NCBI GenBank assembly: GCA_028698185.1
Contig: JAQVDW010000018.1
Span: 1-32,000, forward strand
From: Erysipelotrichaceae bacterium
GTDB lineage: Bacteria > Bacillota_I > Bacilli_A > Erysipelotrichales > Coprobacillaceae
Direction of reading: 5' to 3'
Length of the DNA stretch: 32,000 nt
Part shown: positions 9,066 through 27,349 of the stretch, piece by piece
Layout of the letters: each line of letters starts with the position of its first letter
Numbering within the stretch: the stretch's first letter is position 1
Translations under genes and position numbers: made by a program
Notes under the pieces: model-generated
The model's input: the letters and a program-made list of their open reading frames with translations, nothing else
Told to the model about the DNA's origin: nothing
Databases searched by the model: none

Positions 9066-9094
9066 TTGAAAAAATGTAACATTATATATAAAAT
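9066..9094 (+). promoter_or_regulatory. Sigma-A-type promoter for the retron ncRNA/RT transcript
   Basis: The -35 is TTGAAA (9066-9071), followed by a 17-nt spacer and a -10 of TAAAAT (9089-9094). The predicted transcription start falls at about 9101-9102, exactly where inverted repeat a1 begins. Confidence 0.6.
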
Positions 9095-9101
9095 AAATGT
9101 A

Positions 9102-9230: not shown

Positions 9231-9247
9231 CTAATGGGTGGAAATTT

Positions 9248-10912
9248 ATGAACAAACTATATAAAGTAAAGACTAAAAGAGATTTGGCAGATGCTCTTGG
9301 GATCCCGTATAGAAAACTAACGTATATGCTCTACATATATAAAATTGAAAACTTCTATGAATCGTTTGAAATTGATAAGAAATCTGGCGGAAAAAGAAGG
9401 ATAAACGCCCCAAGAGGAGACTTGCTTGACTTACAAAGACAACTGGCAATGATGCTCGCCGATGTGTATGATAATATAAACGAAAACTGTCGAACTTTTT
9501 CGAACATTTCTCATGGATTTGAAAAAAGAAAAAGCATTATCACTAATGCAAAAATGCATAAAAACAAACGTTATGTTCTTAATTTGGATATAAGTGATTA
9601 TTTTGATAGTTTCAGTTTTGCAAGGGTTATGGGGTTTTTTATAAAAAATTCCAATTTTGAAATGTCAATTGAAGCGGCAACAGTGCTTGCACAATTAACT
9701 TGTTATGAAGGTAAATTACCCCAGGGAGCTCCAACCTCGCCCATTATTTCAAATATGATTTGTAGGATATTAGATTTGCGAATAGCAAAGATTTGTAAGA
9801 GAAATAAAGTTGTGTATTCTAGGTATGCTGATGACTTAACTATCTCTACTAACAATAAATACTTCATTGAAAATTATGAAGATTTTGTATCTAAACTTAG
9901 AGATGAAATTGAGAGATTTGGATTATCTATAAATGAAAAAAAGACTCGATTGTTAACTAACTACGCGAGGCAAGAAGTCACGGGTCTTGTTGTAAATAGA
10001 AAGATAAGCATAAAAAGAGAGTATTGTAAAGATACTAGAGCTATGCTTCATCAATTATTGAAAACTGGCGATTTTTTAATAGATAAACATCCAGGAACAA
10101 TAAGGCAGTTAGAAGGCAGATTTGCGTTTATCAATCAGATTGATTGGTACAATAATAGTTTTGATGGCAATGATCATGGTTTATATAAACTTAATTCTAG
10201 AGAGCGTCAATACCAAAAATTCTTGTTCTATAAATATTTTTACGCTAATGATATGCCTTTAGTTGTTACTGAAGGGAAAACGGATATAATTTATCTTAAG
10301 GCGGCCTTGAGAAAATACCACAAAAAGTACCCATCATTAATAGAAATGAATAACGGAACGTATAGATACAAGGTTTCTTTTTTGAAAAAGAGCAAACGAA
10401 TTAGATATTTTTTAGGTTTTCAGCTTGACGGAGCAGACTCGATGATAAAGATATACAAATACTATACTAAAGGTGGGAATTGTCCGAATTATTTTGAAAT
10501 TATTAGTAAATTGAGCAAAAATGGACCATCTAACCCAGTGATATTACTATTTGATAATGAGCCTCAAAAAAATAAGCCATACTGTAAATTTAGACAAGAG
10601 GCAAAATTAAAAAACAGCCCTCCAGATAATACTAATTTGTCGGATAAACTAGAAGGTAATTTGTATCTTCTAACTGTCCCTATGATGCAAGGAAAATGCG
10701 AGAGTGAGATGGAAGATTTATTTCATGATTCGGTTCTTGAGGTTAAGATTGGTAGTAAAGAATTTAGTCGAGATCCGCACGCTGATTCTAGTAAATATTT
10801 CGGTAAGACTAAATTCGCCGAATATGTTCATAAAAATTTCGAAAATATTGATTTCTCAAATTTTGTGCCACTACTTGATGAATTGAATGATATAGTTATG
10901 AAATTTGAATGA
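9248..10912 (+). CDS. Retron-type reverse transcriptase fused to a C-terminal Toprim-like domain
   Basis: Based on track ORF 9191..10912. The start is moved to ATG 9248 (MNKLYKVK, RBS GGTGGA) because 9191-9247 overlaps msd/a2. RT motifs present are KKSGGKRRINAP, SHGFEKRKSIITNAKMH, LNLDISDYFDSF, LPQGAPTSP, YSRYADDLTIS (YADD codons 9824-9835), INEKKT and the retron-specific VTGLVVN (9977-9985). In the C-terminal region, PLVVTEGKTD (Glu codon 10271-10273) and ILLFDNE (10553-10561) resemble the Toprim E and DxD motifs. Confidence 0.88.
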   Translation: MNKLYKVKTKRDLADALGIPYRKLTYMLYIYKIENFYESFEIDKKSGGKRRINAPRGDLLDLQRQLAMMLADVYDNINENCRTFSNISHGFEKRKSIITNAKMHKNKRYVLNLDISDYFDSFSFARVMGFFIKNSNFEMSIEAATVLAQLTCYEGKLPQGAPTSPIISNMICRILDLRIAKICKRNKVVYSRYADDLTISTNNKYFIENYEDFVSKLRDEIERFGLSINEKKTRLLTNYARQEVTGLVVNRKISIKREYCKDTRAMLHQLLKTGDFLIDKHPGTIRQLEGRFAFINQIDWYNNSFDGNDHGLYKLNSRERQYQKFLFYKYFYANDMPLVVTEGKTDIIYLKAALRKYHKKYPSLIEMNNGTYRYKVSFLKKSKRIRYFLGFQLDGADSMIKIYKYYTKGGNCPNYFEIISKLSKNGPSNPVILLFDNEPQKNKPYCKFRQEAKLKNSPPDNTNLSDKLEGNLYLLTVPMMQGKCESEMEDLFHDSVLEVKIGSKEFSRDPHADSSKYFGKTKFAEYVHKNFENIDFSNFVPLLDELNDIVMKFE

Positions 10913-11524
10913 CCGCATGCCTCAGGTTGAAAATTCCAGTAGTGATATATCGAGATTTGGTAGTTCAAAAATCCAACTAATTTCTACATTTCAGATCATA
11001 TATCTTCTTTTCGCGAACCAAAAGTGATGCATACTGTGTTTTATGGGCATTTAAATTATGAAATGTGATTATTAAAATTTCAATACGAATTACTTTTCCA
11101 GAAGCAGCACTTAATTACTTTTTAACTAGAATCGATTAGCAAGTAATGGGTGGTTATAACAAGTAGACTTATATTGAATATGATAACTTTTGTTTTAGGT
11201 GCTAAGAAAGAAGAAACTTATCAGGAAAAATGAATGTTAACCTATTTGTTTAGGAAGGACTTGTCCTTGGAAGAACAATGCACTAGACCTATGATTATGT
11301 TAAAAGGGGGAATGTCGATGATTATTAGAGGATTTATCACTGGTTTACAAAGAATTTGTTTTAATGGCATTTCAATTAATCTTGGCCCTATAGGATTTAA
11401 TTTTGCTAGTAGTTCTTCCTAAATGAATAATAATGTTTGTATCTAATTTTGCAATCTAAACATCTTTTCGATATTTTCGTCAGTCAACGTACTCTGTTAC
11501 TATCAAAATCAATATTTTATTAAC

Positions 11525-11679
11525 TTAATACATTCCTGAATCGCCCAGATCGGCAGTTCTATTATGCACTAAATAATCGCATACTGGATGATCACTTGCT
11601 GCATCGTTCTGGATCAGTGCCAGGATCTCCAACGCTGATTTCAACGAAGTCACAAAGAAATATTCATTTTTTTGTCCAT
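11525..11679 (-). pseudogene. Small ORF (about 51 codons) interrupted by a frameshift in an A7 tract
   Basis: GGAGGTG plus 5 nt precedes ATG 11679. The frame reads MDKKMNISL then TGA. The +1 frame continues open as ...FFVTSLKSALEILALIQNDAASDHPVCDYLVHNRTADLGDSGMY then TAA (11525-11527). One extra A in the homopolymer (plus-strand T-run 11667-11673) would restore a 51-aa ORF. Confidence 0.35.
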
Positions 11680-11831
11680 GCTATCACCTCCATTCAAAAG
11701 TACATACTTAGTGGGAGGTGATTTTACTTTTAATTTTATAAATACAAGGTATAAGTAATAAGATATATCTATATACATATTGGTCTAATGTGGTTAAAAT
11801 GGAGTTAGATGATTAAAGAAAGGGAATTTAC

Positions 11832-12440
11832 ATGAAAGACACAGATAAAGCGTATTTTGAAATAGTTGATTTTTTACAAAATGCAGATTCGAAGTCATTG
11901 CTCTTAAAAGGTATCTCAGATGACGCGAAAGTCCAGTTGATGCTAAAATCCTTGCACGATGAAAAGCTACTAAGGGGTAGCGTTTATCTTATGCACATGA
12001 AAAAAGATGGGATTGAAAAGTTCTTTAGACCATTTAATATTCCTGGAAGGAAAAAAATCGCCCAATCAAAAACGTACGGTGAAGAAATTAGATTTAGTGA
12101 TATGCAACTAAGATTCTATAAGCTAAAATCATATACAGATTTTCTGATTAATGAAGGACAAATGGATTCTTTTTCGATAGTTTGGCCGATTCAAAGCGCA
12201 GTAGGGAATAGAGAAGATATTGCTAATCTAAAAAAATATATTGGCAGTGCTGATGTGAAGAAAATAATTCTAATCACTTACAATGTGGTACTTCAAGATA
12301 CAGAGGAGATTGAATCGATTGTTGATAAGGTTATAAAACTAGATAAGGAAAACGATGATCCAAAGGTATATAATAGAAGAATTGAAACCGCAAAATACAA
12401 TGATATTCGAAAAACTGCATTATCGGGCGAAAGATGGTGA
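11832..12440 (+). CDS. Hypothetical protein (202 aa), no recognisable motifs
   Basis: The ORF has RBS GAAAGGGA about 7 nt upstream of ATG 11832. Its AT-rich codon usage matches the retron insert. Its stop lies 18 nt from the IS21 relic breakpoint. Confidence 0.6.
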   Translation: MKDTDKAYFEIVDFLQNADSKSLLLKGISDDAKVQLMLKSLHDEKLLRGSVYLMHMKKDGIEKFFRPFNIPGRKKIAQSKTYGEEIRFSDMQLRFYKLKSYTDFLINEGQMDSFSIVWPIQSAVGNREDIANLKKYIGSADVKKIILITYNVVLQDTEEIESIVDKVIKLDKENDDPKVYNRRIETAKYNDIRKTALSGERW

Positions 12441-12458
12441 CATGTTTCCGCGTTTATA

Positions 12459-13071
12459 CCACGCAAATGATCAAATACGCTCATAGTCACGCCGTCCCAA
12501 TCAACCATGACTTTGTCGCCTGGTTTGTGATGAATGTGCATCGTCAAATTGTTTTTCTTTACATAATCCTGGTACAATTCAAAGTAACGGGTTTGATGAT
12601 AGAAAGGCAAAGATGCAGCGCGACATTGTTCCACATACTCACGCCACAATCCCCTAATGTATATTCCTGGTTTGAGTAACTCTTTATGGATGTAATCACA
12701 ATCAGGCAAAATTTGGACTGGTAGATACTTTTCATCTGGAAAAAGCAACGAATTAATCTCGACATCATTCATACTTTGAAACTGAACCCATGTCAATCCG
12801 GTATTATCAGCAGCCTTGAAAATCCTGCTGACTGTATTACGGGATAAATGAAGCGATAAAGCAATGGCTCGTTGGCTCTCACCATAAAAACGTTTCTCAA
12901 GAATTTTCTTGATTTCTTGCATGAAAAAACACCTCCTTAGTAGATGCAAGGTAGATTGTTATCTACACTTCAATTCTACTCCTAAAGAGGTGGCTCTGTG
13001 AGTGAACATTTTATATTTACAAAGTTGCTCTGTATGGTGAACACGGTGGCTCTCAACTAGCGGAATACTCA
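12459..13071 (-). mobile_element. Truncated IS21-family relic (IRL plus the first ~155 codons of istA)
   Basis: The terminus TGAGTATTCCGC is the reverse complement of the sequence ending at 13071, and GAGCCAC repeats are present. IstA-like translation runs from ATG 12922 (MQEIKKILEKRFYGESQRAIALS...DWDGVTMSVFDHL). Similarity to the full copy stops at about 12459, and there is no istB or IRR. The track ORF tail 12293-12458 is read-through into unrelated DNA. Confidence 0.88.
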
Positions 13072-13156
13072 ATTATAATGGGGGCCTAAATGGGGGCCTT
13101 GGAAAAACATATCTATGGAATAGTTGCTAAATAGTTAAAATATTTGTAGATAAAAC

Positions 13157-13214: not shown

Positions 13215-13820
13215 CTATCCCATTCTGTTGTAGTACTCAACGATTAATGATTCATTGATTTCTTGATTCAATTCTGATCTTTCAGGCAATCTAGTCAATT
13301 TACCTGTCAACTTAGCTGCATCAACTTCAACGAAAGCTGGTACATGAGTACGTCCTTCGATTGCTGCTTTGATTACTGCCATGTTTAAAGATTTTTCTCT
13401 AACTGCGATCACGTCACCAACGTTTACTTTCATTGATGGGATGTCAGCTTTGATTCCGTTTAATGTGAAGTGTCCGTGGTTTACTAATTGTCTAGCCGCT
13501 CTTCTTGTTGAAGCGAATCCTAAACGGTAAACTACGTTATCCAAACGGCTTTCTAATAGGCAGAAGAAGTTGTAACCTGTGATTCCGTCCATTTTAGATG
13601 CTCTTTTGAATGTGTTGTGGAATTGTTTTTCGTTAACTCCATACATATGTCTCACTTTTTGCTTTTCAGCTAATTGTGCCCCATATTCAGTTTGTTTTTT
13701 TCTTTTTTGTCCGTGTTGCCCAGGAGCGTAAGGACGTTTGTTTAGTTCTTTACCGTTTTCTAAGGTAGAGAAACCTAAACGACGTGATAATTTCCATTGT
13801 GGTCCAGTATAACGTGCCAT
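13215..13820 (-). CDS. rpsD: 30S ribosomal protein S4
   Basis: The sequence [18 protein letters not shown]...[29 protein letters not shown] is canonical S4 and gives 201 aa. The start is ATG 13820, with GGAGG 10 nt upstream. The track ORF start at 13871 is rejected. Confidence 0.95.
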
Positions 13821-13838
13821 TAATATTTTTCCTCCGTA

Positions 13839-13863
13839 TATTGTTTTAGCAAGTAAAACAATA
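13839..13863 (-). promoter_or_regulatory. Stem-loop in the rpsD 5' leader abutting the RBS
   Basis: A 10-bp stem pairs TATTGTTTTA with TAAAACAATA around the loop GCAAG, 4 nt from the GGAGG. It is a possible S4 autoregulatory element; that role is inference only. Confidence 0.35.
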
Positions 13864-14217
13864 ACCCGCATAGATTATCCAGGTTGTGTCCATATTAAGT
13901 ATTTCTCCTTGCAGCAAGATACTCTACAAACGTTGGTTATGAACGCAATTACTGAAACTCCATGTGCTGCTATCATTTATTGCTTTTCAAGCATAACCGA
14001 ATTGCCGGCCAAAGTCAAGAGAAAAACGGCGGAAATATCCCGATATTTTTAATGTTTTCCCATATTTGTTTTGGATCTTGGATATAATCGCGGGAATTTG
14101 GGAAAATATCGAATTTTAGCACCGCCGGGTCTTTTTGTTTCAAACGGGAGGCTTCTATGCTATAATCATTGTAAATATCGTGCAATTATGATATTCTAAC
14201 TAATCGAGGTGAAAAAC

Positions 14218-15969: not shown

Positions 15970-16827
15970 ATGAACAACGCCAAAATCCGTTTTGACACAG
16001 CTACAGTTTTGAAAGAGGCTTTTCAACCTTTGTTTTTGACTTTTCTGTTCATCCTGCTTATCAATCAGGGAATCAGCACGTTCGCTTCGATGTTTGGTCA
16101 AACGCTATCGCAGATTCTTACGCTTTTAGCCACTGTGGCGACCTTGCCTTTAGCCCAGGGCCAGGTAAAAGCGGCATTGAAGGCGGTCAACAACCAGATC
16201 GATGCCATCGATCCCAAAGACGATGGGCTGGCGGGATTTAGTCATTACCGCCGCTATTTCTCGACCTATTTTGTGGTCTTCATGATCACTTTGATGAGTG
16301 TTTTGATGATTGTCCTGGTGGGAGTCGTTCTGGTGCTTGCCACCCAGGGTGATGTGCTTTCGGGCCTGGGTGATTATTATCTGACATTCACCGATGTCAA
16401 CGCCCTGGTTTTGGCGATGCAAAGTGATGCGGCACTGATGAGTGCGATCTACTCGACACTGGGAATCGTGCTGGCCATCCTTGGGGTCATCGGGCTTGTC
16501 TATCTGTTTATCTACAGCCATATCGCACTGGCCCCCTTCATCCTTGAAAAGTATGACTATCGGGGACTTAAGGCGGTGACCACCAGCGCCAAATACATGA
16601 AGGGCAGGAAATGGGACCTGGTCAAACTGATGGTTTCCTTTTTGCCCCATGCCTTGCTGGGGGTGGTGGCGATGAGTGTCATCGACAGCTTCGTTTCCAA
16701 TATGGTTTTGGCCTCGCTTCTTTCGAGCATTGTCTTCATCGCTGTCTTGAATGTCCGTTTCAAGGTAGCCCTGGCTTACTTCTTCGAAGAAGCGGACATC
16801 GCCTACGAAGGACAGACCCATGACTGA
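15970..16827 (+). CDS. Polytopic membrane protein, DUF975-like
   Basis: The start is moved to MNNAKIRF (ATG 15970). The protein has several TM segments and a YMKGRKWDL motif reminiscent of DUF975. Confidence 0.55.
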   Translation: MNNAKIRFDTATVLKEAFQPLFLTFLFILLINQGISTFASMFGQTLSQILTLLATVATLPLAQGQVKAALKAVNNQIDAIDPKDDGLAGFSHYRRYFSTYFVVFMITLMSVLMIVLVGVVLVLATQGDVLSGLGDYYLTFTDVNALVLAMQSDAALMSAIYSTLGIVLAILGVIGLVYLFIYSHIALAPFILEKYDYRGLKAVTTSAKYMKGRKWDLVKLMVSFLPHALLGVVAMSVIDSFVSNMVLASLLSSIVFIAVLNVRFKVALAYFFEEADIAYEGQTHD

Positions 16828-17566
16828 CAGGCGGCTGCTTGATGATTCACTGCTAACTGGCAAGCTGACTTGGAATATGGTGGCCTATGGTTATCTTACC
16901 GGTGGGGCGATGTATTTTTTCTCGGCTCCGCTGATCGGCCAGTATCTCGCGGTCTTGCTGGTGGGCCATTACGGCAGCTACAGTTTGCTTTTGGGCGTGT
17001 TGAACCTGCTGTTCCAGGCGATCATGCTTGTGACCATGGTTGCCATTTTGAAGGATTTCATCATCGAGAGTGTCCGCCACTTTTCAAAAGGGTGGAAAAC
17101 CGAGCTGCTCTGGGGATTTAGTGTCGGCTTTCCGATGATGTTTATCACCAACTCCTTGCTGGGTGGCCTGGTGACCCTGTTCATCTCGAACGAGAGTGCC
17201 AATGAGGCGGCGATAACCCAGCAGGCCCAGAGCAATTTCGCCTTGATTGCGGTGACCACAATCATTCTGGCACCTGTGGTCGAGGAACTTTTCTTCCGGG
17301 GGATTATTTTCCGTTCTTTTTCGCGGTACAATGTCGTCCTGGGGATGGTTGTCTCGTCGCTGTTTTTTGGCTTCGTCCATATCTACCAGGCCTTGCTGGC
17401 GGGCGATGTCTCGCAGCTTTATTACCTGATCCAATATGGCGGGATGGGCCTGGTGCTTGCCTGGGTGTACGTCATCCGGCGCAATATTCTGAGTGCAATC
17501 TTCGTCCATCTGCTCAACAACGCCATCTCGATGGTCATATTGTGGATATCGTTTGGATTGTTGTGA
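16820..17566 (+). CDS. CPBP family intramembrane glutamic endopeptidase (CAAX protease / Abi-type)
   Basis: The motifs EELFFRG, FGFVH and HLLNN occur in the canonical order. The gene overlaps the upstream gene by 8 nt. Confidence 0.85.
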   Translation: MTDRRLLDDSLLTGKLTWNMVAYGYLTGGAMYFFSAPLIGQYLAVLLVGHYGSYSLLLGVLNLLFQAIMLVTMVAILKDFIIESVRHFSKGWKTELLWGFSVGFPMMFITNSLLGGLVTLFISNESANEAAITQQAQSNFALIAVTTIILAPVVEELFFRGIIFRSFSRYNVVLGMVVSSLFFGFVHIYQALLAGDVSQLYYLIQYGGMGLVLAWVYVIRRNILSAIFVHLLNNAISMVILWISFGLL

Positions 17567-17576
17567 TAAATAAACT

Positions 17577-17608
17577 GGGAGTCTAATCCATTAGGCTTCC
17601 GTTTTTTT
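17577..17608 (+). terminator. Rho-independent terminator after the CPBP gene
   Basis: GGGAGTCTAA pairs with TTAGGCTTCC (17577-17600, including G-U pairs), followed by T7 at 17602-17608. Confidence 0.8.
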
Positions 17609-17638
17609 GTTCTATGACTGTAAATAGGTGAATAATTG

Positions 17639-17647
17639 TGATAGAAT
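17639..17647 (+). promoter_or_regulatory. Extended -10 promoter element of the jet operon
   Basis: TGATAGAAT matches the TGnTAnAAT extended -10 pattern. Only a weak -35 is visible. It lies downstream of the preceding terminator and about 30 nt upstream of the jetA ATG. Confidence 0.45.
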
Positions 17648-17676
17648 GAATGAAATATCGTGCCCGGGGGAATCGT

Positions 17677-19146
17677 ATGCAACTAGAACCAATCAAACAA
17701 ACATCATATCTGACCGCTTTGAACGCTCATCTTTATCGCAGGATCATGCGGATTGTCTATCTTGAGTCGACCCACTACAACTACCATCTCGATCTTGAAA
17801 AGATAATGGAAAAACTGGAAAACGACGAGTTCGAGGGCGCAATCGATGAGCCGGCCGTAAAAAACGCTCTTGACGCCCTGGTGGACTGGGGCAATCTTAC
17901 CGCCATCCAGGATGCCAAGCAGGTCAACACGATTGCCGAATTCAAGGCTCGCAAGTTCCGTTATTCGATCAGTGATATCGCCCTGGAGGTCGAACGGATG
18001 GTGATGAAAATCGAGAACCTGACCGTGAAAAGCAACAGCGCCTCGCTAGGCTACCTCAAGCGGCTGTACCAGGAATTCAAAAAGATTCTCACTCTGAGTG
18101 ACGCAAGTGAAATGCAGCTTCTGGAGTGGTGGGAGTATGTCGGGAATGATTTTGCGACCTTGAACCTGGTTTATAGCGACTACCTCCGTGATTTTTCCGG
18201 TGCCAAGTCGCAAAAGCTGATGCAGTCACTTGAATTTTTGCAACACAAGGAGTACTTCGTCAGGATGCTCAAGGATTTCGTGACCCAGCTGCAGATTTAT
18301 GCCATTGAGTTCGAGAAGATTCTGATAAGTCTTGACCCTAATTACGTCACCAGTCTCCTTGAGCGGATCGTAACCGCCCAGAAGAAGAATCCTTCTTCGC
18401 TTGGTGCTCTTGAATACACCGATGAAAAGTACCTGAGGGATGGGGTCTTTGGCCGTTACAGCGAGCTGCAAAGGTGGTTTGTCAAACTGCCGGGAAGCCC
18501 GAGCGAAGTTGAACAGATCATGGATCGCACCAACGTCATTATCCGCCAGATCATCCAGAATGCGGGGCTGATCATCGACTTCCATGAGGGCATAATATCC
18601 AAGAAGGATGATTACCGCCATTACCTGAAACTTTTTGGCCGGATATCCGATCTTGGTGAGGCCCATAAGCTGGCGGCCCATCTTTTCGGGGTCCATGATA
18701 TCCGTCATTACCAGACCAATGCGCCAAGACTGAGTGAAAGCAGTGCGATTTCGACCTTCGCCGAGGCACCTCAGGTTTTCGAAGTCAAACCGATGACCCG
18801 CAAATACCGGATCAAGCAGGAAAAAATCACCCTGGTGGACCGGTCACTCGAAAAGCAGCTGCAGATCCAGGCGCATCAGGCGATGATTGCCAGCCAGATC
18901 AAGATCGCCAACACCTACATCAAAGCCAAACGGATCGACTTCAAGGATATCGTCGATGAGATATCGCCCGCGACCCGGTTGTTGCTGCTTTCGTGGGTTG
19001 CCAGTGCCAACGGCACAATCGACAAGGTCGGTACAAGCGAGTTTGGCCGACGCTTCAAACTAATGAAAATGGATGAGACCATCACATTGCGCTGCAGTGA
19101 CGGCGACTTGCAGATGCCCCGGTTCATCCTGGAATTCGAGGATTAA
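17677..19146 (+). CDS. jetA: Wadjet JetA (type II, DUF2397/TIGR02677-like)
   Basis: The product is 489 aa from ATG 17677 (RBS GGGGGA). The alternative ATG at 17650 would lie at or before the predicted transcription start. The N-terminus (TSYLTALNAHLYRRIMRIVYLE) resembles the TIGR02677 signature as I recall it. It is the first gene of a coupled four-gene SMC-like operon. Confidence 0.75.
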   Translation: MQLEPIKQTSYLTALNAHLYRRIMRIVYLESTHYNYHLDLEKIMEKLENDEFEGAIDEPAVKNALDALVDWGNLTAIQDAKQVNTIAEFKARKFRYSISDIALEVERMVMKIENLTVKSNSASLGYLKRLYQEFKKILTLSDASEMQLLEWWEYVGNDFATLNLVYSDYLRDFSGAKSQKLMQSLEFLQHKEYFVRMLKDFVTQLQIYAIEFEKILISLDPNYVTSLLERIVTAQKKNPSSLGALEYTDEKYLRDGVFGRYSELQRWFVKLPGSPSEVEQIMDRTNVIIRQIIQNAGLIIDFHEGIISKKDDYRHYLKLFGRISDLGEAHKLAAHLFGVHDIRHYQTNAPRLSESSAISTFAEAPQVFEVKPMTRKYRIKQEKITLVDRSLEKQLQIQAHQAMIASQIKIANTYIKAKRIDFKDIVDEISPATRLLLLSWVASANGTIDKVGTSEFGRRFKLMKMDETITLRCSDGDLQMPRFILEFED

Positions 19147-19147
19147 G

Positions 19148-20257
19148 ATGATACCTAAAGAACTGCTTGAAAACTTCTGGGTCCTTAAAAGCGACGACCC
19201 CAAGAAGTTCTATCAGTTGAAAAGAGAACTGAAACAGTCGCAAAGCTTCATCAACAACCAGATCGGATGGAAAGTCATCGCCAATGACAATCTTCTCAAG
19301 ATTGAAAAGACACCTTATCGGGCTTCGGGCTATATGGGAATCACGGATTTCAACGATGTTGACGACTACCTTTTCCTGGTGGCCACCCTGATCTTCCTCG
19401 AGGACAAGGGGGTGCACGAGCAGTTTTTGCTTTCGCAGTATATTGAAGGGATTGAAGTGATTTTGGGTGACCTGATCGAGCTGGACTGGACGAGCTATTC
19501 GCGGCGCCGGACTTTGATCAGGGTTATGGAATACTGTCTCAACCTGGCCCTGCTTAAGGTCACCGACGGTTCGCTGGAAGGCTTCAAAAGCGGCGGCGAG
19601 GGCGAGGTGCTCTATGAGAACACGGGACTTTCGAAGTATTACCCGGTCAGCTTCAATTTCGATGTCACCAAGATTGAAGGGGTCGATGATCTGGTTGTGG
19701 TGTTGAATGATTCAACCGACACCGTGCGCAATAGCGTCTATCAACAGCTGATCACCAGCCCGGGGGTGACCTGGAGCTCGAGTGAGGATGTCTTTGGCAA
19801 ATATCTCAAGAACCAGCGGTTCAACATCCAGAAAAACATCGACCGCTTTCTTTCTGGTGAGTTGATGGTATTCAAGAACTCGGCCTACTTGATGGTCTCC
19901 AGTGATGATAAATATGGGACCCTCCATCCCAGCGGCAAATCGATAAGTTCGCTGGTGCTGTTTGTCCAGAAGCGGATCGTCGAGATGTGCAACAATGGCG
20001 AATTGAAGCTCTTGGTTGAGGATGTGATCGAGATGGGTGCCGGCGATTTTGGCAAGCTTGTTGTGGGCGTATACAATCAGGTTCTGCCGGGATTGTCGAG
20101 CGAGTACCGCAATATGGACATAAACAATGTGATCAAGGCGGTAGTCGCCTATATGGAGGGCTTCCATCTGATCGAACTAGATGGAGCAAAGATAATAATA
20201 CAAGGGGCAGTGGCCCGCCATGAGGGAAGTTACCCTTATGATTTTGTGGAGGAATAG
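19148..20257 (+). CDS. jetB: Wadjet JetB (type II, DUF2398/TIGR02678-like)
   Basis: The product is 369 aa. The ATG lies 1 nt after the jetA stop. Size and position match the second gene of the TIGR02677-80 cluster. No motif was recognised directly. Confidence 0.65.
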   Translation: MIPKELLENFWVLKSDDPKKFYQLKRELKQSQSFINNQIGWKVIANDNLLKIEKTPYRASGYMGITDFNDVDDYLFLVATLIFLEDKGVHEQFLLSQYIEGIEVILGDLIELDWTSYSRRRTLIRVMEYCLNLALLKVTDGSLEGFKSGGEGEVLYENTGLSKYYPVSFNFDVTKIEGVDDLVVVLNDSTDTVRNSVYQQLITSPGVTWSSSEDVFGKYLKNQRFNIQKNIDRFLSGELMVFKNSAYLMVSSDDKYGTLHPSGKSISSLVLFVQKRIVEMCNNGELKLLVEDVIEMGAGDFGKLVVGVYNQVLPGLSSEYRNMDINNVIKAVVAYMEGFHLIELDGAKIIIQGAVARHEGSYPYDFVEE

Positions 20258-23200
20258 ATGAAAGAAAGATGGCAGATGCATCGGATGGGACTGGTGAATT
20301 TCTGGTATTTCGACGACCAGGAGTTCGAGTTTGCCAATGGCAAGCTTTTGATCCGGGGCCAGAACGGTTCGGGAAAATCGATATCGACCCAATCCTTCAT
20401 TCCGTTCATATTGGATGGAAACAAGGCGCCTTACAGGCTGGATCCCTTTGGGTCCAAGGACCGGCGCATGGAATATTATTTCCTGCTTGACGGCAAGAAT
20501 GATGAATCGGCCGGCTATATCTGGCTTGAATTCAAGAAAACCGGTTCAGAGCAGTACCGCACCCTGGTAATCGGACAGCGGGCCCGCAAGAACAGCGACA
20601 TGCAGTTCTGGAGCGGGATAATTCTTGACAACCGGCGGATCAACCGAGATTTTCAGCTAAAAAAACGGCTTGGCGACTCTTGGCAGATTCTCACCAAACA
20701 GGAGTTCAAAAACGCGCTTGGGGATAGCAACTTCTACTCCGAGCGGGCGGTGGAGTACAAGGCGGCGGTCAACAAGCATGTTTTCGGGTTCGACCAGCTT
20801 GACCAGTACGACCAGTTCGTGGACCTGCTTATCAAGGTGCGGGCTCCAAAGCTTTCCAAGGAATTCAAACCGACCAAGATCTACGAGATCTACAATGAAA
20901 GTCTCCAGGTTTTAAGCGATAGTGATATCCTGCCGATGGTCGAATCGATGGAAGAAATCGACCGGACCCAGGCCAAGCTCGATGAATTCCAGGCGACCAA
21001 AAAGGCGCTTGACAATGTCGGTCGCGTCTACAATCTCTACAATCGCTATTACCTGGGGAAAAAGGCGCAAAACTACACCCGTTATCGCGACGAGTTCGAT
21101 GACCTTTCCAGCCGGCTCAAAGACGGTCAGGACCGGTTTGAAGCCAATCAGGAAGCGCTAATAGATATCGCTAAAAGAACCGATGAGCTAAACGGGGCCA
21201 ATGCCCTGTTGCAAACCGAAAGGGCTGCGCTCCCGCTTGATGACATCGAAGCCAAGATTGAAAGCTACAAACAGGCAAAAGGGGAAAAGCAGGCTCAGGT
21301 CCAGGAACTAAAGGCCCATCAAGGCAAGCTGGATGCCGCCTTGGCGGAAAAGGATGTCAAAATCACCCAGCGGCGCCAGCTTGAACAGGATGGCAGCGAC
21401 TGCGAGTATCGGGTTTTTAAAGGGATCAAAGAACTTGATGCGATCAACGAAATCGCAAAGCTGCCAGGCCACGAAAAGATCCGCCGAATGGAAAGTCAAC
21501 GTGATCTTCTGGGACACTGTGATGAGCTTGAAGGGGAATTGAACAAAGTTTCCAAGCGGGTCGACCAGGTTCTTGTCTGTCTTGACCGGCGCCATCAAGA
21601 ACAACTCCGGCGCGACGAGCTTGCGCAAAACCTCGGCCTGGTCAATGAACAGATTGCCAACTGCAACAGTCTTCTTGATGGCAAGACCCGGGAGATTGAA
21701 AACGTAAGGGACGAACTGATCAACGGATTCTATCGTTTCGCGCAGGGAAGTCCCGCCCTCGATATCACAAGCAGGCTTAATGATCTGGCCAATATCATCA
21801 GGGAATACCAGGGCTATGGCGATTTTAGAATGATTGACCGGATTTTGATCGAGCTCAAAAGCGACCAGGCGCTGACTTTGAACAAGTCGATAATGGAGAC
21901 ACGCTTCGCCTTGGACAACTACCGGAAGGACCGGGATCTGCTTAACCGGGAACTCATCGCCCTGATCCAAACACAGGATCTGACATTTCCGGTCTCCGAG
22001 CTGGTTGGCCAAGGGCGCAGGATCCTTGCGGATAACGGAATTGATTTTATCAGTGTCTATCAGGCCTTGGAATTCGACGAGTCGCTTACGGAAAAACAGA
22101 AGAACATAATGGAAGCCCAGCTGGTGGCAACCAATCTCATCGATGCCATCATCGTCAATTACGAAAACTATGAAAAGGCCCGGGAGCTTTTAAGGGGCAG
22201 CGACCAGGTCCTGGTGGCTCTTGAAAGTCAGGAGGGGACGGGGACGTTCTTTGTCAAGGGGGACCATCCCCGGTTTGAGCGGGAAATCGATGATTTCATC
22301 GCGATGTTCGCTTCCAAAGGCCGCTTCGAACCTGACGGCCATTACCGCCATGGGCTGATGGAAGGTTTCGTTTCCGACAAAAAAGAAAGTCTCTATGTGG
22401 GTGAAAAGTCGCGCAAGGCCAACCGGCTAAGGCAGATCGCTTCGATCGAAGCCAGTATGGCAAAGCTCGAGGAACTTGTGGAATCGACGACCCAGGAAAT
22501 AAAAAGGCTAGAACAGATTGGAGCGCAGCTTGAGGAAGACTATGCCAGCCTCCAGGTTTTTGCCGACCTCGACCGGCTGCTCGAAGAGCTTGACGCGCTT
22601 GAAGTCCAGCTGGTCCAGGCGACCCAAAAACAACAGGAGCTTTCAAATCAGGTGGAGCAAGTCAAGGCCCGGCTGGTAAAAATCAAGAACGAATTGCTTG
22701 GAGCGGCCAGCGATCTGCCATACCATCTGGAAAGTGCCATCTATCAGGATGTCAGGGAAAGTCTAAAAGACTATCAGACCACCTTGAACCAGATCCACCG
22801 CGAATTGCTGCTCTGGGGAACCAAGAACACCCAGGTGCAAACGATCGGCGAGGTGATTGACAAGATTGGGGAACAGGTTGATGAATACTACGATTTGACC
22901 CGCCAGCTGGAAAGCCGGATTGCCAAGAACACCACCATCATCGCGACCATCGAGAATTACCTGAATCAAGAGTCAACCAAAGAGCTCCATGGGCGGGTCA
23001 GAAAAATCGACGAAGCGCTGGAAGCCAATGGGATTGAAATTGAAAAACTTGACAGCCAGCGGCAACATTACCGGGAAGCGAATCTCCTGCTTGAACGGGA
23101 TATCGCCCTGATGGCCAGCCAGTTGGAAAAAGCGAAGGCTTATCTTGATCTTTCAAGAGAACTTTTTGTCCAGGAACTCGATCTAGGATATGTTCAAGGA

Positions 23201-24268
23201 ATCATGGGCAATATCGATGAACAGGCCAAAAAAGCGGGCAGTCTGCTCCAGCCAAATGAAGCGCAAAAGGGCGAGAATGAGCTGTTGCAATCGTTGAACG
23301 ACGCCCAGCGCAACAACTTCTCGGCTTTGACCAATTATGGCATCGCCACGGTTGAGCTGTTCAAAGCCAATGAATCCAACCTGATTTCCCTGCGTTATGC
23401 GATCATGCTCAAGTACCAGAACAAGACGGTCGATTTCTTCGAATTTTACGATAAGATCACCGAAACGATCGAGAACACCCAGCTGCTCATAGTGGAAAAG
23501 GACAAGGAACTATTCGAGAAGTTCTTCTCCGACGCCCTGGCCAACAAGCTGATCCGCAAGATCAACGACGCGAAAAGCTGGGTCAAGGACATGAGCGAGC
23601 TTATGGAGAATCTCAAGACGACATCGGCCATCTCGTTTTCACTGGCATGGAAGCCCAAAGCGGCTCTTTCCAGCGATGATCTCGCGACGCTAGAACTCGT
23701 CAGGCTGCTTGAAAGCGACCGGGAGATCCTGAGCTACGAGAATCTTAACGCCCTCTCGCAACATTTTTCCAAACGGATCAAGATGGCCAAACAGGAATAT
23801 CTTGAAAACGACATCCAGGAGTTCAACTACGGTGACCTGGTCCGCCAGGCCCTGGATTATCGGGAATGGTTCGAATTCTGCCTTTACTACAGACGGTCCG
23901 GAGCTGTCAAGAAGGAACTGACCAATTCGGCCTTCAATGTCCTTTCCGGGGGCGAGAAGGCGATGGCGATGTATGTGCCGCTGTTCACCGCGGTCAATGC
24001 CCAGTACAAGAAATCCGCGAAACCGGACTTCCCGCGCATCATCGCCCTTGATGAAGCCTTTGCCGGAGTCGACAGCGAGAATATCTCGTCGATGTTCGAT
24101 CTGGTGGAGAAACTGGATTTCGATTTCATCATGAACTCGCAGGTGCTCTGGGGCACTGATGGCGCAGTCAAGGAGCTGGCGATATCCGAACTGTACCGGC
24201 CGCTCAATTCCCAGGTTGTATCGACCATAAATTACCATTGGAACGGAAAGGTGAAGACGCTGTTATGA
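20258..24268 (+). CDS. jetC: Wadjet JetC, SMC/MukB-like ABC ATPase (TIGR02680-like)
   Basis: The product is 1336 aa. The N-terminus is RWQMHRMGLVNFWYFDDQEFEFANGKLLIRGQNGSGKS, with Walker A at nt 20357-20380. A long coiled-coil middle region follows. The signature LSGGEKAM is at about 23942 and Walker B IIALDEAFAGVD at about 24038-24073. The ATG directly follows the jetB stop. Confidence 0.88.
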   Translation: MKERWQMHRMGLVNFWYFDDQEFEFANGKLLIRGQNGSGKSISTQSFIPFILDGNKAPYRLDPFGSKDRRMEYYFLLDGKNDESAGYIWLEFKKTGSEQYRTLVIGQRARKNSDMQFWSGIILDNRRINRDFQLKKRLGDSWQILTKQEFKNALGDSNFYSERAVEYKAAVNKHVFGFDQLDQYDQFVDLLIKVRAPKLSKEFKPTKIYEIYNESLQVLSDSDILPMVESMEEIDRTQAKLDEFQATKKALDNVGRVYNLYNRYYLGKKAQNYTRYRDEFDDLSSRLKDGQDRFEANQEALIDIAKRTDELNGANALLQTERAALPLDDIEAKIESYKQAKGEKQAQVQELKAHQGKLDAALAEKDVKITQRRQLEQDGSDCEYRVFKGIKELDAINEIAKLPGHEKIRRMESQRDLLGHCDELEGELNKVSKRVDQVLVCLDRRHQEQLRRDELAQNLGLVNEQIANCNSLLDGKTREIENVRDELINGFYRFAQGSPALDITSRLNDLANIIREYQGYGDFRMIDRILIELKSDQALTLNKSIMETRFALDNYRKDRDLLNRELIALIQTQDLTFPVSELVGQGRRILADNGIDFISVYQALEFDESLTEKQKNIMEAQLVATNLIDAIIVNYENYEKARELLRGSDQVLVALESQEGTGTFFVKGDHPRFEREIDDFIAMFASKGRFEPDGHYRHGLMEGFVSDKKESLYVGEKSRKANRLRQIASIEASMAKLEELVESTTQEIKRLEQIGAQLEEDYASLQVFADLDRLLEELDALEVQLVQATQKQQELSNQVEQVKARLVKIKNELLGAASDLPYHLESAIYQDVRESLKDYQTTLNQIHRELLLWGTKNTQVQTIGEVIDKIGEQVDEYYDLTRQLESRIAKNTTIIATIENYLNQESTKELHGRVRKIDEALEANGIEIEKLDSQRQHYREANLLLERDIALMASQLEKAKAYLDLSRELFVQELDLGYVQGIMGNIDEQAKKAGSLLQPNEAQKGENELLQSLNDAQRNNFSALTNYGIATVELFKANESNLISLRYAIMLKYQNKTVDFFEFYDKITETIENTQLLIVEKDKELFEKFFSDALANKLIRKINDAKSWVKDMSELMENLKTTSAISFSLAWKPKAALSSDDLATLELVRLLESDREILSYENLNALSQHFSKRIKMAKQEYLENDIQEFNYGDLVRQALDYREWFEFCLYYRRSGAVKKELTNSAFNVLSGGEKAMAMYVPLFTAVNAQYKKSAKPDFPRIIALDEAFAGVDSENISSMFDLVEKLDFDFIMNSQVLWGTDGAVKELAISELYRPLNSQVVSTINYHWNGKVKTLL

Positions 24269-25545
24269 TCGAAGAGTGCGTAGCCTACTTCAAGGCGAAG
24301 CCGGAATTCGACCGGGTCTTCAAACTCATGAAAAAGCAGTGGGAGAAATACGGGCGGGCAGCCGGCTACATAATTCTCAAAGACCCGACTGCCAAAGAAA
24401 AGGAGGTCCTGGGCAAGTTTTTGCACCAGGATTATGGCTATCCCGCCGATCTGGCCAAGATCAGATTCAAGATGGTCTCCTTCCAGGAAGCACTGGAAAT
24501 AACCAGGTTCAAAAACCTCGATATCAAGGATATCCTTGACGCCTACTTCCGGATGGAAATATCGACGACCGGACACAAACGGATGGTCGCTCAAAAAAAG
24601 CAGGCTGATTTATTCGAGGCGCTGTCAAAACGGGTAAGCCACCCGTTGGTGGCAGATTGGTTCGATTGGCTGCGCCAATCCAGAACCAGTGGCTATATGT
24701 TGTTCAAGTCATGGGTCAAGGATGATGAAGATTCCGCCTGCCAGGCGATACAAGCGATCGACAGTGCGGTTGGCTGTCTTGATCGAAGTGCGTTTCCCTT
24801 GGCGGTTCTAGGGGCCCAGGTGACGGGCAATCCCCACTATTTCGACCGCAACACCAAGCCGGGGCGGCTGCTTATCAGCTGTTTGGGACATATCCATGGC
24901 GTCACAACCCCGAGTCACGCCCAGGGGATTTTGGAGCTGTATGTCCTGGCCAAAATAACCCCGGATGACATCTCGTCGAGTGTGGTCATCAAGAACATCG
25001 ACCTTTTTCAAGGGGACAAGATCCATCAAGGTGTTGCCGGATTCAATGAATTGAACGAGCCTTGTGTGGTGACTTTGGGCAACCTGGCGAACGTCAGTCA
25101 TGCTTCAAGCAAGCCCTGTGTGTTTGTGTTTGAAAACCAGATGGTCTTTTCATATCTGGCCAGCGAGCGACTCGATAACTGCTCCCTGGTGTGCACTTCG
25201 GGCCAGCTCAAGGTTGCGGCACTGAAGCTTTTCGAAATGCTCGACAGGAAAGTCAGGATCTTTTACAGTGGCGATTTCGATCCCGAGGGCCTGCAAATAG
25301 CCGACAAGCTATTGGGCCGTTTTCCCAATGTGACGCCGTGGGGGTTTAGTGAGGAGCTTTACTTCAAGGCGCTTTCAAGCGAGCCAATCAGCGATGTCCG
25401 CCTGAGCAAACTCGATTCCCTGGCCGACTCGCGCCTTAAACAATTGGGCAAGTCAATCAAGGACCATAAGTTGGCCGGTTACCAGGAAAACATCCTCGAT
25501 TTCTACCGTGAGGACATCGTCAAAAAAATGATGGAAAACAAGTGA
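24265..25545 (+). CDS. jetD: Wadjet JetD, Toprim-type nuclease subunit (DUF2399/TIGR02679-like)
   Basis: The product is 426 aa, and ATG 24265 overlaps the jetC stop (ATGA). The C-terminal Toprim motifs are VFVFENQMVF (Glu codon 25133-25135) and FYSGDFDPEGLQIA (DxD at 25273-25281). Confidence 0.8.
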   Translation: MIEECVAYFKAKPEFDRVFKLMKKQWEKYGRAAGYIILKDPTAKEKEVLGKFLHQDYGYPADLAKIRFKMVSFQEALEITRFKNLDIKDILDAYFRMEISTTGHKRMVAQKKQADLFEALSKRVSHPLVADWFDWLRQSRTSGYMLFKSWVKDDEDSACQAIQAIDSAVGCLDRSAFPLAVLGAQVTGNPHYFDRNTKPGRLLISCLGHIHGVTTPSHAQGILELYVLAKITPDDISSSVVIKNIDLFQGDKIHQGVAGFNELNEPCVVTLGNLANVSHASSKPCVFVFENQMVFSYLASERLDNCSLVCTSGQLKVAALKLFEMLDRKVRIFYSGDFDPEGLQIADKLLGRFPNVTPWGFSEELYFKALSSEPISDVRLSKLDSLADSRLKQLGKSIKDHKLAGYQENILDFYREDIVKKMMENK

Positions 25546-25588
25546 TGACCACCAGGCCAGACAAGGCAGGGTGGTCATCATCTTTTTT
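25543..25588 (+). terminator. jet operon terminator
   Basis: TGATGACCACC (25543-25553) pairs with GGTGGTCATCA (25570-25580), followed by a T-run at 25583-25588. Confidence 0.85.
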
Positions 25589-27002: not shown

Positions 27003-27079
27003 TGGCGGTCTGGACGGGACTCGAACCCGCGACCTCCGCCGTGACAGGGCGGCATTCTAACCAACTGAACTACCAGACC
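27003..27079 (-). tRNA. tRNA-Asp (anticodon GTC), encoded CCA
   Basis: The minus strand reads GGTCTGGTAGTTCAGTTGGTTAGAATGCCGCCCTGTCACGGCGGAGGTCGCGGGTTCGAGTCCCGTCCAGACCGCCA. Confidence 0.93.
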
Positions 27080-27087
27080 GTAAAAAA

Positions 27088-27178
27088 TGGCGGAGACAGA
27101 GAGATTTGAACTCTCGCGCCAGTTACCCGACCTACGCCCTTAGCAGGGGCGCCTCTTCAGCCTCTTGAGTATGTCTCC
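27088..27178 (-). tRNA. tRNA-Ser (anticodon GCT), long variable arm, encoded CCA
   Basis: The minus strand reads GGAGACATACTCAAGAGGCTGAAGAGGCGCCCCTGCTAAGGGCGTAGGTCGGGTAACTGGCGCGAGAGTTCAAATCTCTCTGTCTCCGCCA. Confidence 0.92.
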
Positions 27179-27273
27179 AGGTTTTTACTGCTTTTACATG
27201 ATAGCATTTATTTACATGTGTTGCAATACTTTTTTTCACTTTTTTCAAACACTGTCCAATGTTTAGAAAAAAA

Positions 27274-27349
27274 TGGTCTCCCCGCACGGGCTCGAACCGT
27301 GGACCCTCTGATTAAGAGTCAGATGCTCTACCAACTGAGCTACGGAGAG
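27274..27349 (-). tRNA. tRNA-Lys (anticodon CTT), encoded CCA, unusual C1:G72
   Basis: The minus strand reads CTCTCCGTAGCTCAGTTGGTAGAGCATCTGACTCTTAATCAGAGGGTCCACGGTTCGAGCCCGTGCGGGGAGACCA. The body is a canonical Lys tRNA. The acceptor pairs CTCTCCG with CGGGGAG. Confidence 0.85.

What the first reader, a model, noticed from the sequence alone, without database searches (positions are those of the whole stretch)
17639..25588. Complete type II Wadjet (JetABCD; TIGR02677/78/80/79-style) anti-plasmid SMC operon
Seen in sequence:
- Four co-directional genes of 489, 369, 1336 and 426 aa have 1-nt, 0-nt and overlapping (ATGA) junctions.
- The operon is bounded by its own promoter and a strong terminator.
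- The 1336-aa protein has the N-terminal Walker A GQNGSGKS embedded in ...GLVNFWYFDDQEFEF..G.LLIRG....
- It also has about 1000 residues of heptad-like charged sequence, then LSGGEKAM and IIALDEAFAGVD.
- The last protein carries Toprim motifs (FVFENQ and GDFDPEG).

Established:
- Wadjet comprises JetA (kleisin-like), JetB (KITE-like), JetC (SMC ATPase) and JetD (Toprim nuclease).
- It restricts circular plasmid DNA by loop extrusion followed by cleavage.
- Type II Wadjet uses the DUF2397/DUF2398/DUF2399 families. JetB is larger (about 370-400 aa) and JetC about 1350 aa there, whereas type I has JetB of about 200-240 aa and JetC of about 1100 aa.

Inference:
- The type II assignment rests on gene sizes, gene order and the JetC N-terminal signature.
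- JetA and JetB are assigned mostly by position.
- Composition matches the host, so the system is not a recent arrival.
Basis: partly seen in the sequence, partly recalled or inferred. Interest (0 to 1): 0.7.

Follow-up and report, generated by a model that had tools for sequence, protein, structure and literature searches.

The report
Intact type II Wadjet anti-plasmid operon
This is an ordinary, intact four-gene type II Wadjet (JetABCD) system, a DNA-looping motor with an attached nuclease that bacteria use to destroy incoming circular plasmids, sitting at a fixed chromosomal site in a gut-type Firmicute lineage.

Summary
The observation and the interpretation both hold. Window 17677-25545 (+) carries four tightly coupled genes: jetA 489 aa, jetB 369 aa, jetC 1336 aa and jetD 426 aa.

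- **Profile searches:** Pfam gives DUF2397, DUF2398, SbcC_Walker_B and DUF3323+DUF2399. PADLOC's best models are JetA2, JetB2, JetC2 and JetD2 (E 1e-103 to 0).
- **Solved structure:** JetA, JetB and JetC align end to end with the cryo-EM type II complex of Neobacillus vireti (PDB 9qe0/9qe1).
- **JetD:** it has no sequence match among solved structures. A confident model (pLDDT 92.8) is closest to MksG, P. aeruginosa JetD, topoisomerase VI-A and Spo11. The Toprim residues E290, D337 and D339 are invariant in 42 homologues.
- **Age at this site:** the operon lies at the same site (pyrF-pyrE-DUF975-CAAX | jetABCD | GyrI-like-HAD) in two further public assemblies. One of them is a Coprobacillaceae MAG chromosome. 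dN/dS is 0.08-0.19, so the operon is old at this site and under purifying selection.

Minor corrections:
- The promoter is only an extended -10 box.
- TIGR02678 and TIGR02679 score below NCBIfam's curated cut-offs.
- The JetC "heptad" stretch includes a hinge.

The operon is a new member of a known kind and of low interest. A retron type I-C lies about 6.8 kb upstream.

The parts
17576..17609 (+). Terminator-like hairpin plus T-run of the preceding gene (CAAX protease, 16820-17566). It marks the upstream boundary of the jet transcription unit.
   Evidence: 11-pair stem followed by TTTTTTTG. The T-run is conserved in L003.
17639..17647 (+). Candidate extended -10 promoter element, TGaTAGAAT, with a weak -35.
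   Evidence: Read from the sequence. It was not reported by the consensus scan. TGTGnTAnAAT is conserved in the related MAG L003. This is an inference, not a demonstration.
17666..17671 (+). Shine-Dalgarno GGGGGA, 5 nt upstream of the jetA ATG.
   Evidence: conserved in L003.
17677..19146 (+). jetA, type II kleisin subunit (DUF2397, 489 aa).
   Evidence: PF09660 at 335 bits, covering profile positions 1-482 of 483. TIGR02677 at 200 bits, above its cut-off. PADLOC JetA2 E 2e-130. PDB 9qe0_E JetA E 1.7e-45 over residues 4-488.
19148..20257 (+). jetB, type II tandem-KITE subunit (DUF2398, 369 aa).
   Evidence: PF09661 at 218 bits. PADLOC JetB2 E 1e-103. It aligns with residues 20-382 of the 389-residue chain 9qe0_D, spanning both lobes (5-205 and 206-388) of the solved tandem KITE (lobe limits from bioRxiv 10.1101/2025.03.10.642339). 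TIGR02678 scores only 88 bits, below its cut-off.
20258..24268 (+). jetC, type II SMC-family ABC ATPase (1336 aa). Walker A is at residues 34-41, the signature motif at 1229-1236 and Walker B at 1261-1266.
   Evidence: TIGR02680 at 640 bits. PADLOC JetC2 at 1159 bits against JetC1 at 69 bits. PF13558 SbcC_Walker_B. PDB 9qe0_A JetC E 3.8e-142 over residues 3-1335. Motif positions.
24265..25545 (+). jetD, type II nuclease subunit (426 aa). The N-terminal part is DUF3323 (CAP-like arm) and the C-terminal part is a DUF2399 Toprim domain with E290, D337 and D339.
   Evidence: PF11796 at 126 bits plus PF09664 at 83 bits. PADLOC JetD2 E 5e-122. E290, N291, G336, D337, D339, P340 and G342 are invariant in 42 homologues. 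The AF2 model has pLDDT 92.8. The Foldseek top hits are MksG 8b7f, Topo VI-A 1d3y and PaJetD 7til.
25542..25588 (+). Intrinsic terminator: a 12+3-pair hairpin followed by T6.
   Evidence: -28.3 kcal/mol, z -5.2. A hairpin plus T-run is present at the same place in L003, with sequence changes.

Best explanation
The region is an intact chromosomal type II Wadjet operon, jetA-jetB-jetC-jetD.

By homology with the reconstituted N. vireti type II system, the complex and its action would be as follows.
1. Two JetC SMC ATPases, one JetA kleisin and one tandem-KITE JetB form a motor unit. Motor units dimerise through the JetA N-terminus.
2. The complex loads on DNA and extrudes loops, using ATP.
3. 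On a small circular DNA (a plasmid), extrusion runs to completion and the motors stall.
4. The stalled state recruits and activates the JetD Toprim nuclease dimer. JetD cuts the DNA without sequence specificity.
5. The linearised plasmid is then degraded by host exonucleases. The large chromosome and linear DNA are spared.

What is shown here:
- gene content, order and coupling;
- family membership of all four proteins;
- intact ATPase and Toprim catalytic motifs;
- purifying selection;
- long residence at this chromosomal site.

What is inferred from the homologous system:
- complex stoichiometry;
- loop extrusion;
- specificity for circular DNA;
- Mn2+ dependence;
- the anti-plasmid phenotype.
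For: - **Profile matches of all four proteins to the type II families:** Pfam, NCBIfam, PADLOC.
- **Full-length matches of JetA, JetB and JetC to PDB 9qe0/9qe1 only**.
- **Mechanism of the N. vireti system.** It cleaves plasmid DNA, requires JetABC, JetD and ATP, leaves linear DNA uncut, cleaves without sequence specificity and requires Mn2+ (bioRxiv 10.1101/2025.03.10.642339).
- **JetD.** Confident model; nearest solved folds are MksG, JetD, Topo VI-A and Spo11; the Toprim E and DxD residues are invariant.
- **JetC.** Walker A, signature and Walker B motifs are intact.
- **Operon architecture.** Translationally coupled junctions and a strong terminator.
- **Selection.** dN/dS is 0.08-0.19 for all four genes in three pairwise comparisons.
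- **Position.** The same chromosomal site is occupied in L003 and L004.
Against: - Nothing found contradicts the assignment.
- No functional data exist for this operon or its close relatives. The nearest characterised system is distant: JetA and JetB match it at about 160 bits, and JetC scores 479 bits over the full length.
- TIGR02678 and TIGR02679 scores fall below NCBIfam's curated cut-offs.
- JetD has no detectable sequence similarity to any solved structure, even with a 42-sequence profile. Its nuclease assignment rests on Pfam and PADLOC profiles, the conserved motifs and a predicted fold.
- Expression is not shown, and the promoter is only a candidate.
Confidence: 0.93

Rival explanations
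1. The operon is a domesticated chromosome-organising condensin of the MukBEF/MksBEF kind. It would be retained at a housekeeping locus for host chromosome segregation rather than for plasmid defence.
For: The operon sits among housekeeping genes (pyrF, pyrE, a tRNA cluster) rather than on a recognisable mobile element. It has been kept at this site in three diverged lineages under purifying selection. The N. vireti paper notes that the type II resting state and hinge resemble MukBEF, and it discusses domestication of Wadjet as the origin of MukBEF/MksBEF.
Against: The JetD nuclease gene is present, translationally coupled (ATGA overlap), under purifying selection (dN/dS 0.11-0.19) and has invariant catalytic residues. 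In the domestication scenario discussed, loss of the nuclease is the step that fixes a former Wadjet as a chromosome-segregation module. The Jet proteins also evolve faster than the flanking housekeeping genes, which is more typical of conflict genes. A retron defence system lies nearby.
Confidence: 0.04
2. The operon is a different SMC-like system: type I or III Wadjet, Lamassu, SbcCD/Rad50 or RecN.
For: There are weak secondary hits: PADLOC JetC1 at 69 bits, LmuB at 28 bits and mad3 at 38 bits; NCBIfam Rad50 at 30 bits; Pfam SMC_N at 30.6 bits, below its cut-off.
Against: These hits are explained by the shared ABC-ATPase head. The type II models score 10- to 40-fold higher and cover the full length of all four proteins. 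The partner genes are DUF2397, DUF2398 and DUF2399, not SbcD/Mre11 or LmuA.
Confidence: 0.01
3. The operon is a decaying or silent remnant that no longer functions.
For: No promoter passes the consensus scan, and there are no expression data.
Against: All four reading frames are intact and have the family-typical lengths. All catalytic motifs are intact. dN/dS is 0.08-0.19. The extended -10, the SD and the terminator are conserved in a relative with about 83% JetC identity.
Confidence: 0.02

Closest known systems
Neobacillus vireti LMG 21834 type II Wadjet (nvJET-II; PDB 9qe0/9qe1; Roisne-Hamelin, Liu and Gruber, bioRxiv 10.1101/2025.03.10.642339)
   Same: The gene order and subunit families are the same.
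- JetC aligns over 3-1335 against 5-1356 (E 3.8e-142), with a near-identical N-terminal head signature.
- JetB aligns across both KITE lobes (E 4.7e-46).
- JetA aligns over its full length (E 1.7e-45).
- Sizes are similar: JetB 369 aa against 388 residues reported for nvJetB (389 in the PDB chain), and JetC 1336 aa against 1371 in the PDB chain.

   Different: The two are distant in sequence. Much of the JetC coiled coil aligns only weakly. The host is a Coprobacillaceae-like Erysipelotrichales bacterium rather than a Bacillus relative. JetD could not be compared directly, because no nvJetD structure or sequence is in the PDB. No biochemistry exists for this operon.
Type I Wadjet and MksBEFG (E. 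coli GF4-3 JetABCD, P. aeruginosa PA14 JetABCD, C. glutamicum MksBEFG)
   Same: The logic is the same four-subunit SMC plus Toprim nuclease. The JetD model is closest in fold to MksG (8b7f, E 9e-8) and PaJetD (7til, E 2.5e-6). According to the nvJET-II study, the two types share the extrusion-then-cleavage mechanism.
   Different: The Pfam families of JetA and JetB differ. Type I JetB is a single KITE (242 aa in ecJetB) that homodimerises, and the PADLOC JetC1 profiles are about 1100 positions long. PADLOC type I models score only 20-70 bits here. The type II JetD N-terminal arm differs from type I, and the subunits are not interchangeable between types.
MukBEF / MksBEF condensins
   Same: They have the same SMC-kleisin-KITE architecture. 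The type II resting-state geometry and the channel-less hinge are reported to resemble MukBEF.
   Different: They have no nuclease subunit and they organise the chromosome. Here a JetD nuclease is encoded and conserved.

Membership tests
Type II Wadjet (JetA2B2C2D2) | Four co-directional, tightly linked genes in the order jetA-jetB-jetC-jetD | tested here: met
   Coordinates and junctions are given. The gaps are 1 nt, 0 nt and a 4-nt overlap. The same organisation is called on public contigs.
Type II Wadjet (JetA2B2C2D2) | JetA of the DUF2397 / TIGR02677 kleisin family | tested here: met
   PF09660 at 335 bits (cut-off 28.5). TIGR02677 at 200 bits (cut-off 165.85). PADLOC JetA2 E 2e-130. 9qe0_E E 1.7e-45.
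Type II Wadjet (JetA2B2C2D2) | JetB of the DUF2398 / TIGR02678 family: an enlarged (about 370-390 aa) tandem KITE with two lobes | tested here: met
   PF09661 at 218 bits (cut-off 26.9). PADLOC JetB2 E 1e-103. The alignment to the solved tandem KITE 9qe0_D covers residues 20-382, spanning both lobes (lobe limits). Caveats: TIGR02678 scores 88 bits, below its 124.65 cut-off, and the four-WHD fold itself was not modelled here.
Type II Wadjet (JetA2B2C2D2) | JetC of the TIGR02680 family: a long (about 1340-1370 aa) SMC-type ABC ATPase with Walker A, signature and Walker B motifs | tested here: met
   TIGR02680 at 640 bits (cut-off 462.85). PADLOC JetC2 at 1159 bits over profile positions 1-1352 of 1355. 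9qe0_A E 3.8e-142. Motifs at 34-41, 1229-1236 and 1261-1266.
Type II Wadjet (JetA2B2C2D2) | JetD with a DUF3323 N-terminal arm and a DUF2399 Toprim domain carrying the catalytic E and DxD | tested here: met
   PF11796 at 126 bits and PF09664 at 83 bits, both above their cut-offs. PADLOC JetD2 E 5e-122. E290, D337 and D339 are invariant in 42 sequences. The predicted fold is closest to MksG, PaJetD and Topo VI-A. Caveat: TIGR02679 scores 161.7 bits, below its 196 cut-off.
Type II Wadjet (JetA2B2C2D2) | ATP-dependent cleavage of circular but not linear DNA, and reduced plasmid transformation | not testable with these tools
   This is known for nvJET-II. Here it needs a transformation assay or in vitro reconstitution.
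Type II Wadjet (JetA2B2C2D2) | [quoted passage not shown] | not tested
   The evidence is indirect only. JetC has about the same length as nvJetC and aligns with it end to end. No JetC model was built.
Type I Wadjet | Best profile matches to the type I JetA, JetB, JetC and JetD families | tested here: not met
   No type I JetA or JetB model hits at all. JetC1 scores 69 bits against JetC2 at 1159. JetD1 scores 29 bits against JetD2 at 406.
MukBEF / MksBEF condensin | A three-gene SMC-kleisin-KITE operon without a nuclease | tested here: not met
   A fourth gene, jetD, overlaps the jetC stop codon and is conserved.

The most novel reading that the evidence does not exclude
The operon may be an unusually long-resident, vertically inherited Wadjet fixed at one housekeeping locus (pyrFE ... 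tRNA cluster) across a Coprobacillaceae-like clade.

Its subunits diverge about 2-3 times more between lineages than the flanking genes do, and increasingly so from JetA to JetD. In the more distant comparison, synonymous divergence is also higher than in the flanks.

This could reflect one of three things:
- exchange of alleles by homologous recombination within a fixed locus;
- arms-race diversification against plasmid anti-Wadjet factors;
- an added host (chromosome-handling) role that explains the stable retention.
Probability: 0.12. Interest if true: 0.4.

Novelty: new member of a known kind. Interest (0 to 1): 0.15.

Why it matters
The practical value is modest.
- The operon adds an Erysipelotrichales/Coprobacillaceae representative to type II Wadjet. 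Only one member of that type has been studied biochemically and structurally.
- It predicts that this organism will resist transformation with small circular plasmids. That matters to anyone trying to make such gut anaerobes genetically tractable: deleting jetABCD or using linear or large DNA should help.
- The three syntenic but diverged alleles could be used to map fast-evolving surfaces of JetC and JetD.

It opens no new mechanism or question. PADLOC's type II Wadjet models match all four proteins strongly, so a standard defence-system annotation would be expected to call it automatically.

Tried and rejected
1. **Genome-collection scan with the flanking CAAX protease.** The aim was to find the organism and any empty sites. 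No relative was found. No genome with an empty pyrE-CAAX | GyrI-like site was found, so the time of acquisition is bounded only from below.
2. **JetD against the sequences of solved structures.** As a single sequence and as a 42-sequence profile it gave only chance hits. The relationship to JetD, MksG and Topo VI-A is visible only at the fold level.
3. **Consensus promoter scan.** It found nothing upstream of jetA. The promoter claim therefore rests on a hand-read extended -10 box.
4. **Megablast of the operon against PLSDB plasmids.** No match, so there is no sign of recent plasmid origin.
5. **Rfam at gathering threshold.** Only four tRNAs were found. No RNA family lies in or next to the operon, and none matches the retron ncRNA.
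6. **Alternative systems considered and rejected on profile scores:** type I and III Wadjet, Lamassu, SbcCD/Rad50/RecN and MukBEF.
7. **Not done: a JetB or JetC structure prediction.** Sequence alignment to the solved complex already answered the membership question, so another whole-database homologue search was not justified.
Full report
**Observation**

- jetA 17677-19146 (489 aa)
- jetB 19148-20257 (369 aa)
- jetC 20258-24268 (1336 aa)
- jetD 24265-25545 (426 aa)

The mechanical ORF list and the junction sequences confirm a 1-nt gap, a 0-nt gap and an ATGA stop/start overlap.

A longer jetA ORF starts at 17650. The ATG at 17677 is preferred for two reasons. It is preceded by GGGGGA (17666-17671). 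It is also the start called on a public contig that carries an identical operon.

- JetC: GLVNFWYFDDQEFEF (11-25), Walker A GQNGSGKS (34-41), LSGGEKAM (1229-1236), IIALDEAFAGVD (1261-1272).
- JetD: FVFENQ (287-292) and GDFDPEG (336-342).

The downstream terminator is real. The hairpin at 25542-25581 plus T6 folds at -28.3 kcal/mol with z = -5.2.

The promoter is less certain. The consensus scan reports nothing upstream of jetA. What can be read is an extended -10 (TGaTAGAAT, 17639-17647) with a weak -35. It lies just after the terminator of the preceding gene (17576-17601). The -10, the TG and the SD are conserved in a relative. The terminator is functionally conserved there too.

**Identity**

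Profile searches place all four proteins in the type II Wadjet families.

| Protein | Pfam | NCBIfam | PADLOC best model |
|---|---|---|---|
| JetA | DUF2397, 335 bits | TIGR02677, 200 bits, above cut-off | JetA2, E 2e-130 |
| JetB | DUF2398, 218 bits | TIGR02678, 88 bits, below cut-off 124.65 | JetB2, E 1e-103 |
| JetC | SbcC_Walker_B | TIGR02680, 640 bits, above cut-off | JetC2, 1159 bits |
| JetD | DUF3323 + DUF2399 | TIGR02679, 161.7 bits, below cut-off 196 | JetD2, E 5e-122 |

The two sub-threshold NCBIfam scores show that this lineage is divergent from those seed models. Each PADLOC match covers nearly the whole profile. Type I and III models reach only 20-70 bits.

In the PDB, JetA, JetB and JetC each match a single entry pair, 9qe0/9qe1, whose chains are named JetA, JetB and JetC:
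- JetC: E 3.8e-142, residues 3-1335 against 5-1356.
- JetA: E 1.7e-45.
- JetB: E 4.7e-46, residues 6-366 against 20-382.

That entry is the type II complex of Neobacillus vireti (bioRxiv 10.1101/2025.03.10.642339). The paper defines the hallmarks of the type:
- a single tandem-KITE JetB (lobes 5-205 and 206-388);
- a JetD with a Toprim domain and a divergent CAP-like arm.

The JetB found here aligns across both lobes.

**JetD**

JetD has no sequence-level match to any solved structure, either alone or as a 42-sequence profile. I therefore did the following.
- I collected homologues: 617 at E <= 1e-5, annotated where named as TIGR02679 or DUF2399 proteins.
- I aligned 42 of them. E290, N291, G336, D337, D339, P340 and G342 are invariant. 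These are the Toprim glutamate and the DxD motif.
- I predicted the structure: mean pLDDT 92.8.
- I ran Foldseek against the PDB. The hits were C. glutamicum MksG (8b7f, E 9e-8), topoisomerase VI-A (1d3y), P. aeruginosa JetD (7til), further Topo VI entries and Spo11. This is the fold neighbourhood expected for a JetD nuclease.

**Context and history**

The flanks are ordinary chromosomal genes.
- Upstream: rpsD, a DUF3783 protein, pyrF, pyrE, a DUF975 protein and a CAAX protease.
- Downstream: a GyrI-like protein, two HAD hydrolases, three tRNAs and a sulfatase.

An identical operon with the same flanks is on a Logan contig (L001).

A Coprobacillaceae MAG chromosome (OY776328, L003) has the same gene order (taxonomy). 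Identities to the window:
- JetA 91%, JetB 90%, JetC 83%, JetD 80%.
- pyrF 96%, pyrE 96%, rpsD 98%.

A third assembly (L004, ENA ERZ21869602) again has the same order:
- JetA 82%, JetB 73%, JetC 68%, JetD 63%.
- pyrE 97%, pyrF 93%.

The next closest JetD (45% identical, L005) sits in an unrelated sugar-metabolism context.

Nei-Gojobori estimates:
- dN/dS is 0.08-0.19 for all four jet genes in all three pairs.
- For window against L003, dS of the jet genes is 0.63-0.75, within the range of the flanks (0.61-1.58).
- GC (0.49-0.52) and GC3 (about 0.66) match the immediate neighbours.

No plasmid in PLSDB carries near-identical DNA.

**Mechanism**

I commit to the following mechanism, inferred by homology with nvJET-II and the type I systems.
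1. JetA1B1C2 motor units, dimerised through JetA, load on DNA and extrude loops by ATP hydrolysis.
2. On a small circle, extrusion completes and the motors stall.
3. The stalled complex activates a JetD dimer, which cuts at a non-specific position and leaves short 5' overhangs.
4. The linear product is degraded.

For nvJET-II the following were shown:
- cleavage requires JetABC, JetD and ATP;
- cleavage requires Mn2+;
- linear DNA is spared;
- JetD is not interchangeable with type I JetD.

None of this is shown for the present operon.

**Rivals**

- **Domesticated condensin.** Disfavoured by the conserved, coupled nuclease gene and by the faster evolution of the Jet proteins.
- **Another SMC-like system.** Excluded by profile scores.
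- **A dead remnant.** Disfavoured by intact frames and motifs and by purifying selection.

**Novelty and verdict**

This is a textbook type II Wadjet operon in a lineage where none has been studied. PADLOC's type II models match all four proteins strongly, so a standard defence-system annotation would be expected to call it. It is a new member of a known kind and of low interest.

The only mildly unusual aspect is its stable residence at one housekeeping locus across three diverged lineages. This is combined with a divergence gradient (JetA < JetB < JetC < JetD) that is steeper than in the flanks.

Noticed in passing
window 9102-10912 (+), inside a low-GC island at about 8400-13100: A retron type I-C lies about 6.8 kb upstream of the Wadjet operon. 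The RT ORF probably starts at the ATG at 9248 and ends at 10912 (554 aa). It matches PADLOC RT-Toprim_I-C at E 9e-229 over profile positions 2-551 of 554. Just upstream is a perfect 11-nt inverted repeat, GCGCATGGCCA at 9102-9112 and TGGCCATGCGC at 9220-9230. It closes a structured 129-nt element of -42 kcal/mol, z -3.6. This is a candidate msr-msd with a1/a2 arms. The island has GC 0.32 against about 0.50 for its neighbours. The RT is absent from the syntenic MAG L003. Rfam has no match.
   Followed up: partly
window 11832-12440 (+), 12293-12949 (-) and 11234-11422 (+): The same low-GC island holds ORFs with no Pfam or PADLOC family. ORF 12293-12949 shows only faint HTH/sigma-70 region 4 hits. 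They could be retron-associated or other cargo of the island.
   Followed up: partly
window 17677-25545 compared with L003 and L004: Divergence rises along the operon, JetA < JetB < JetC < JetD: 91, 90, 83 and 80% identity against L003, and 82, 73, 68 and 63% against L004. The Jet dN ratio (L004/L003) is about 2.4-2.9, against about 1.0-1.8 for the flanking genes. Against L004, dS for jetB-jetD (1.75-2.1) exceeds that of the flanks (0.76-1.43). Possible causes are allele exchange within a fixed locus or faster evolution. dS is near saturation, so this remains unresolved.
   Followed up: partly
window 86-2451 (+) and 2876-2960 (-): An IS21-family element is present: an IstA-like transposase of 543 aa (rve plus Mu-transposase C-terminal domain) and an IstB ATPase of 245 aa. 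It lies next to a tRNA-Leu(CAG) gene.
   Followed up: no
window 13215-13871 (-): rpsD has GC 0.38 and GC3 0.30, whereas the genes immediately downstream have GC3 of 0.51-0.71. Its dS against L003 (0.22) is far lower than that of its neighbours (0.6-1.4). This could be strong codon bias in a highly expressed gene or recent exchange. It borders the low-GC island in both the window and L003.
   Followed up: no
L003 1000-3000: The syntenic MAG also has a low-GC stretch (0.29-0.32) next to rpsD, with different ORFs and no RT. This suggests a variable insertion hotspot beside rpsD.
   Followed up: no
window 27003-27349 (-): A tRNA-Asp(GTC), tRNA-Ser(GCT) and tRNA-Lys(CTT) cluster lies 1.5 kb downstream of the operon.
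   Followed up: no
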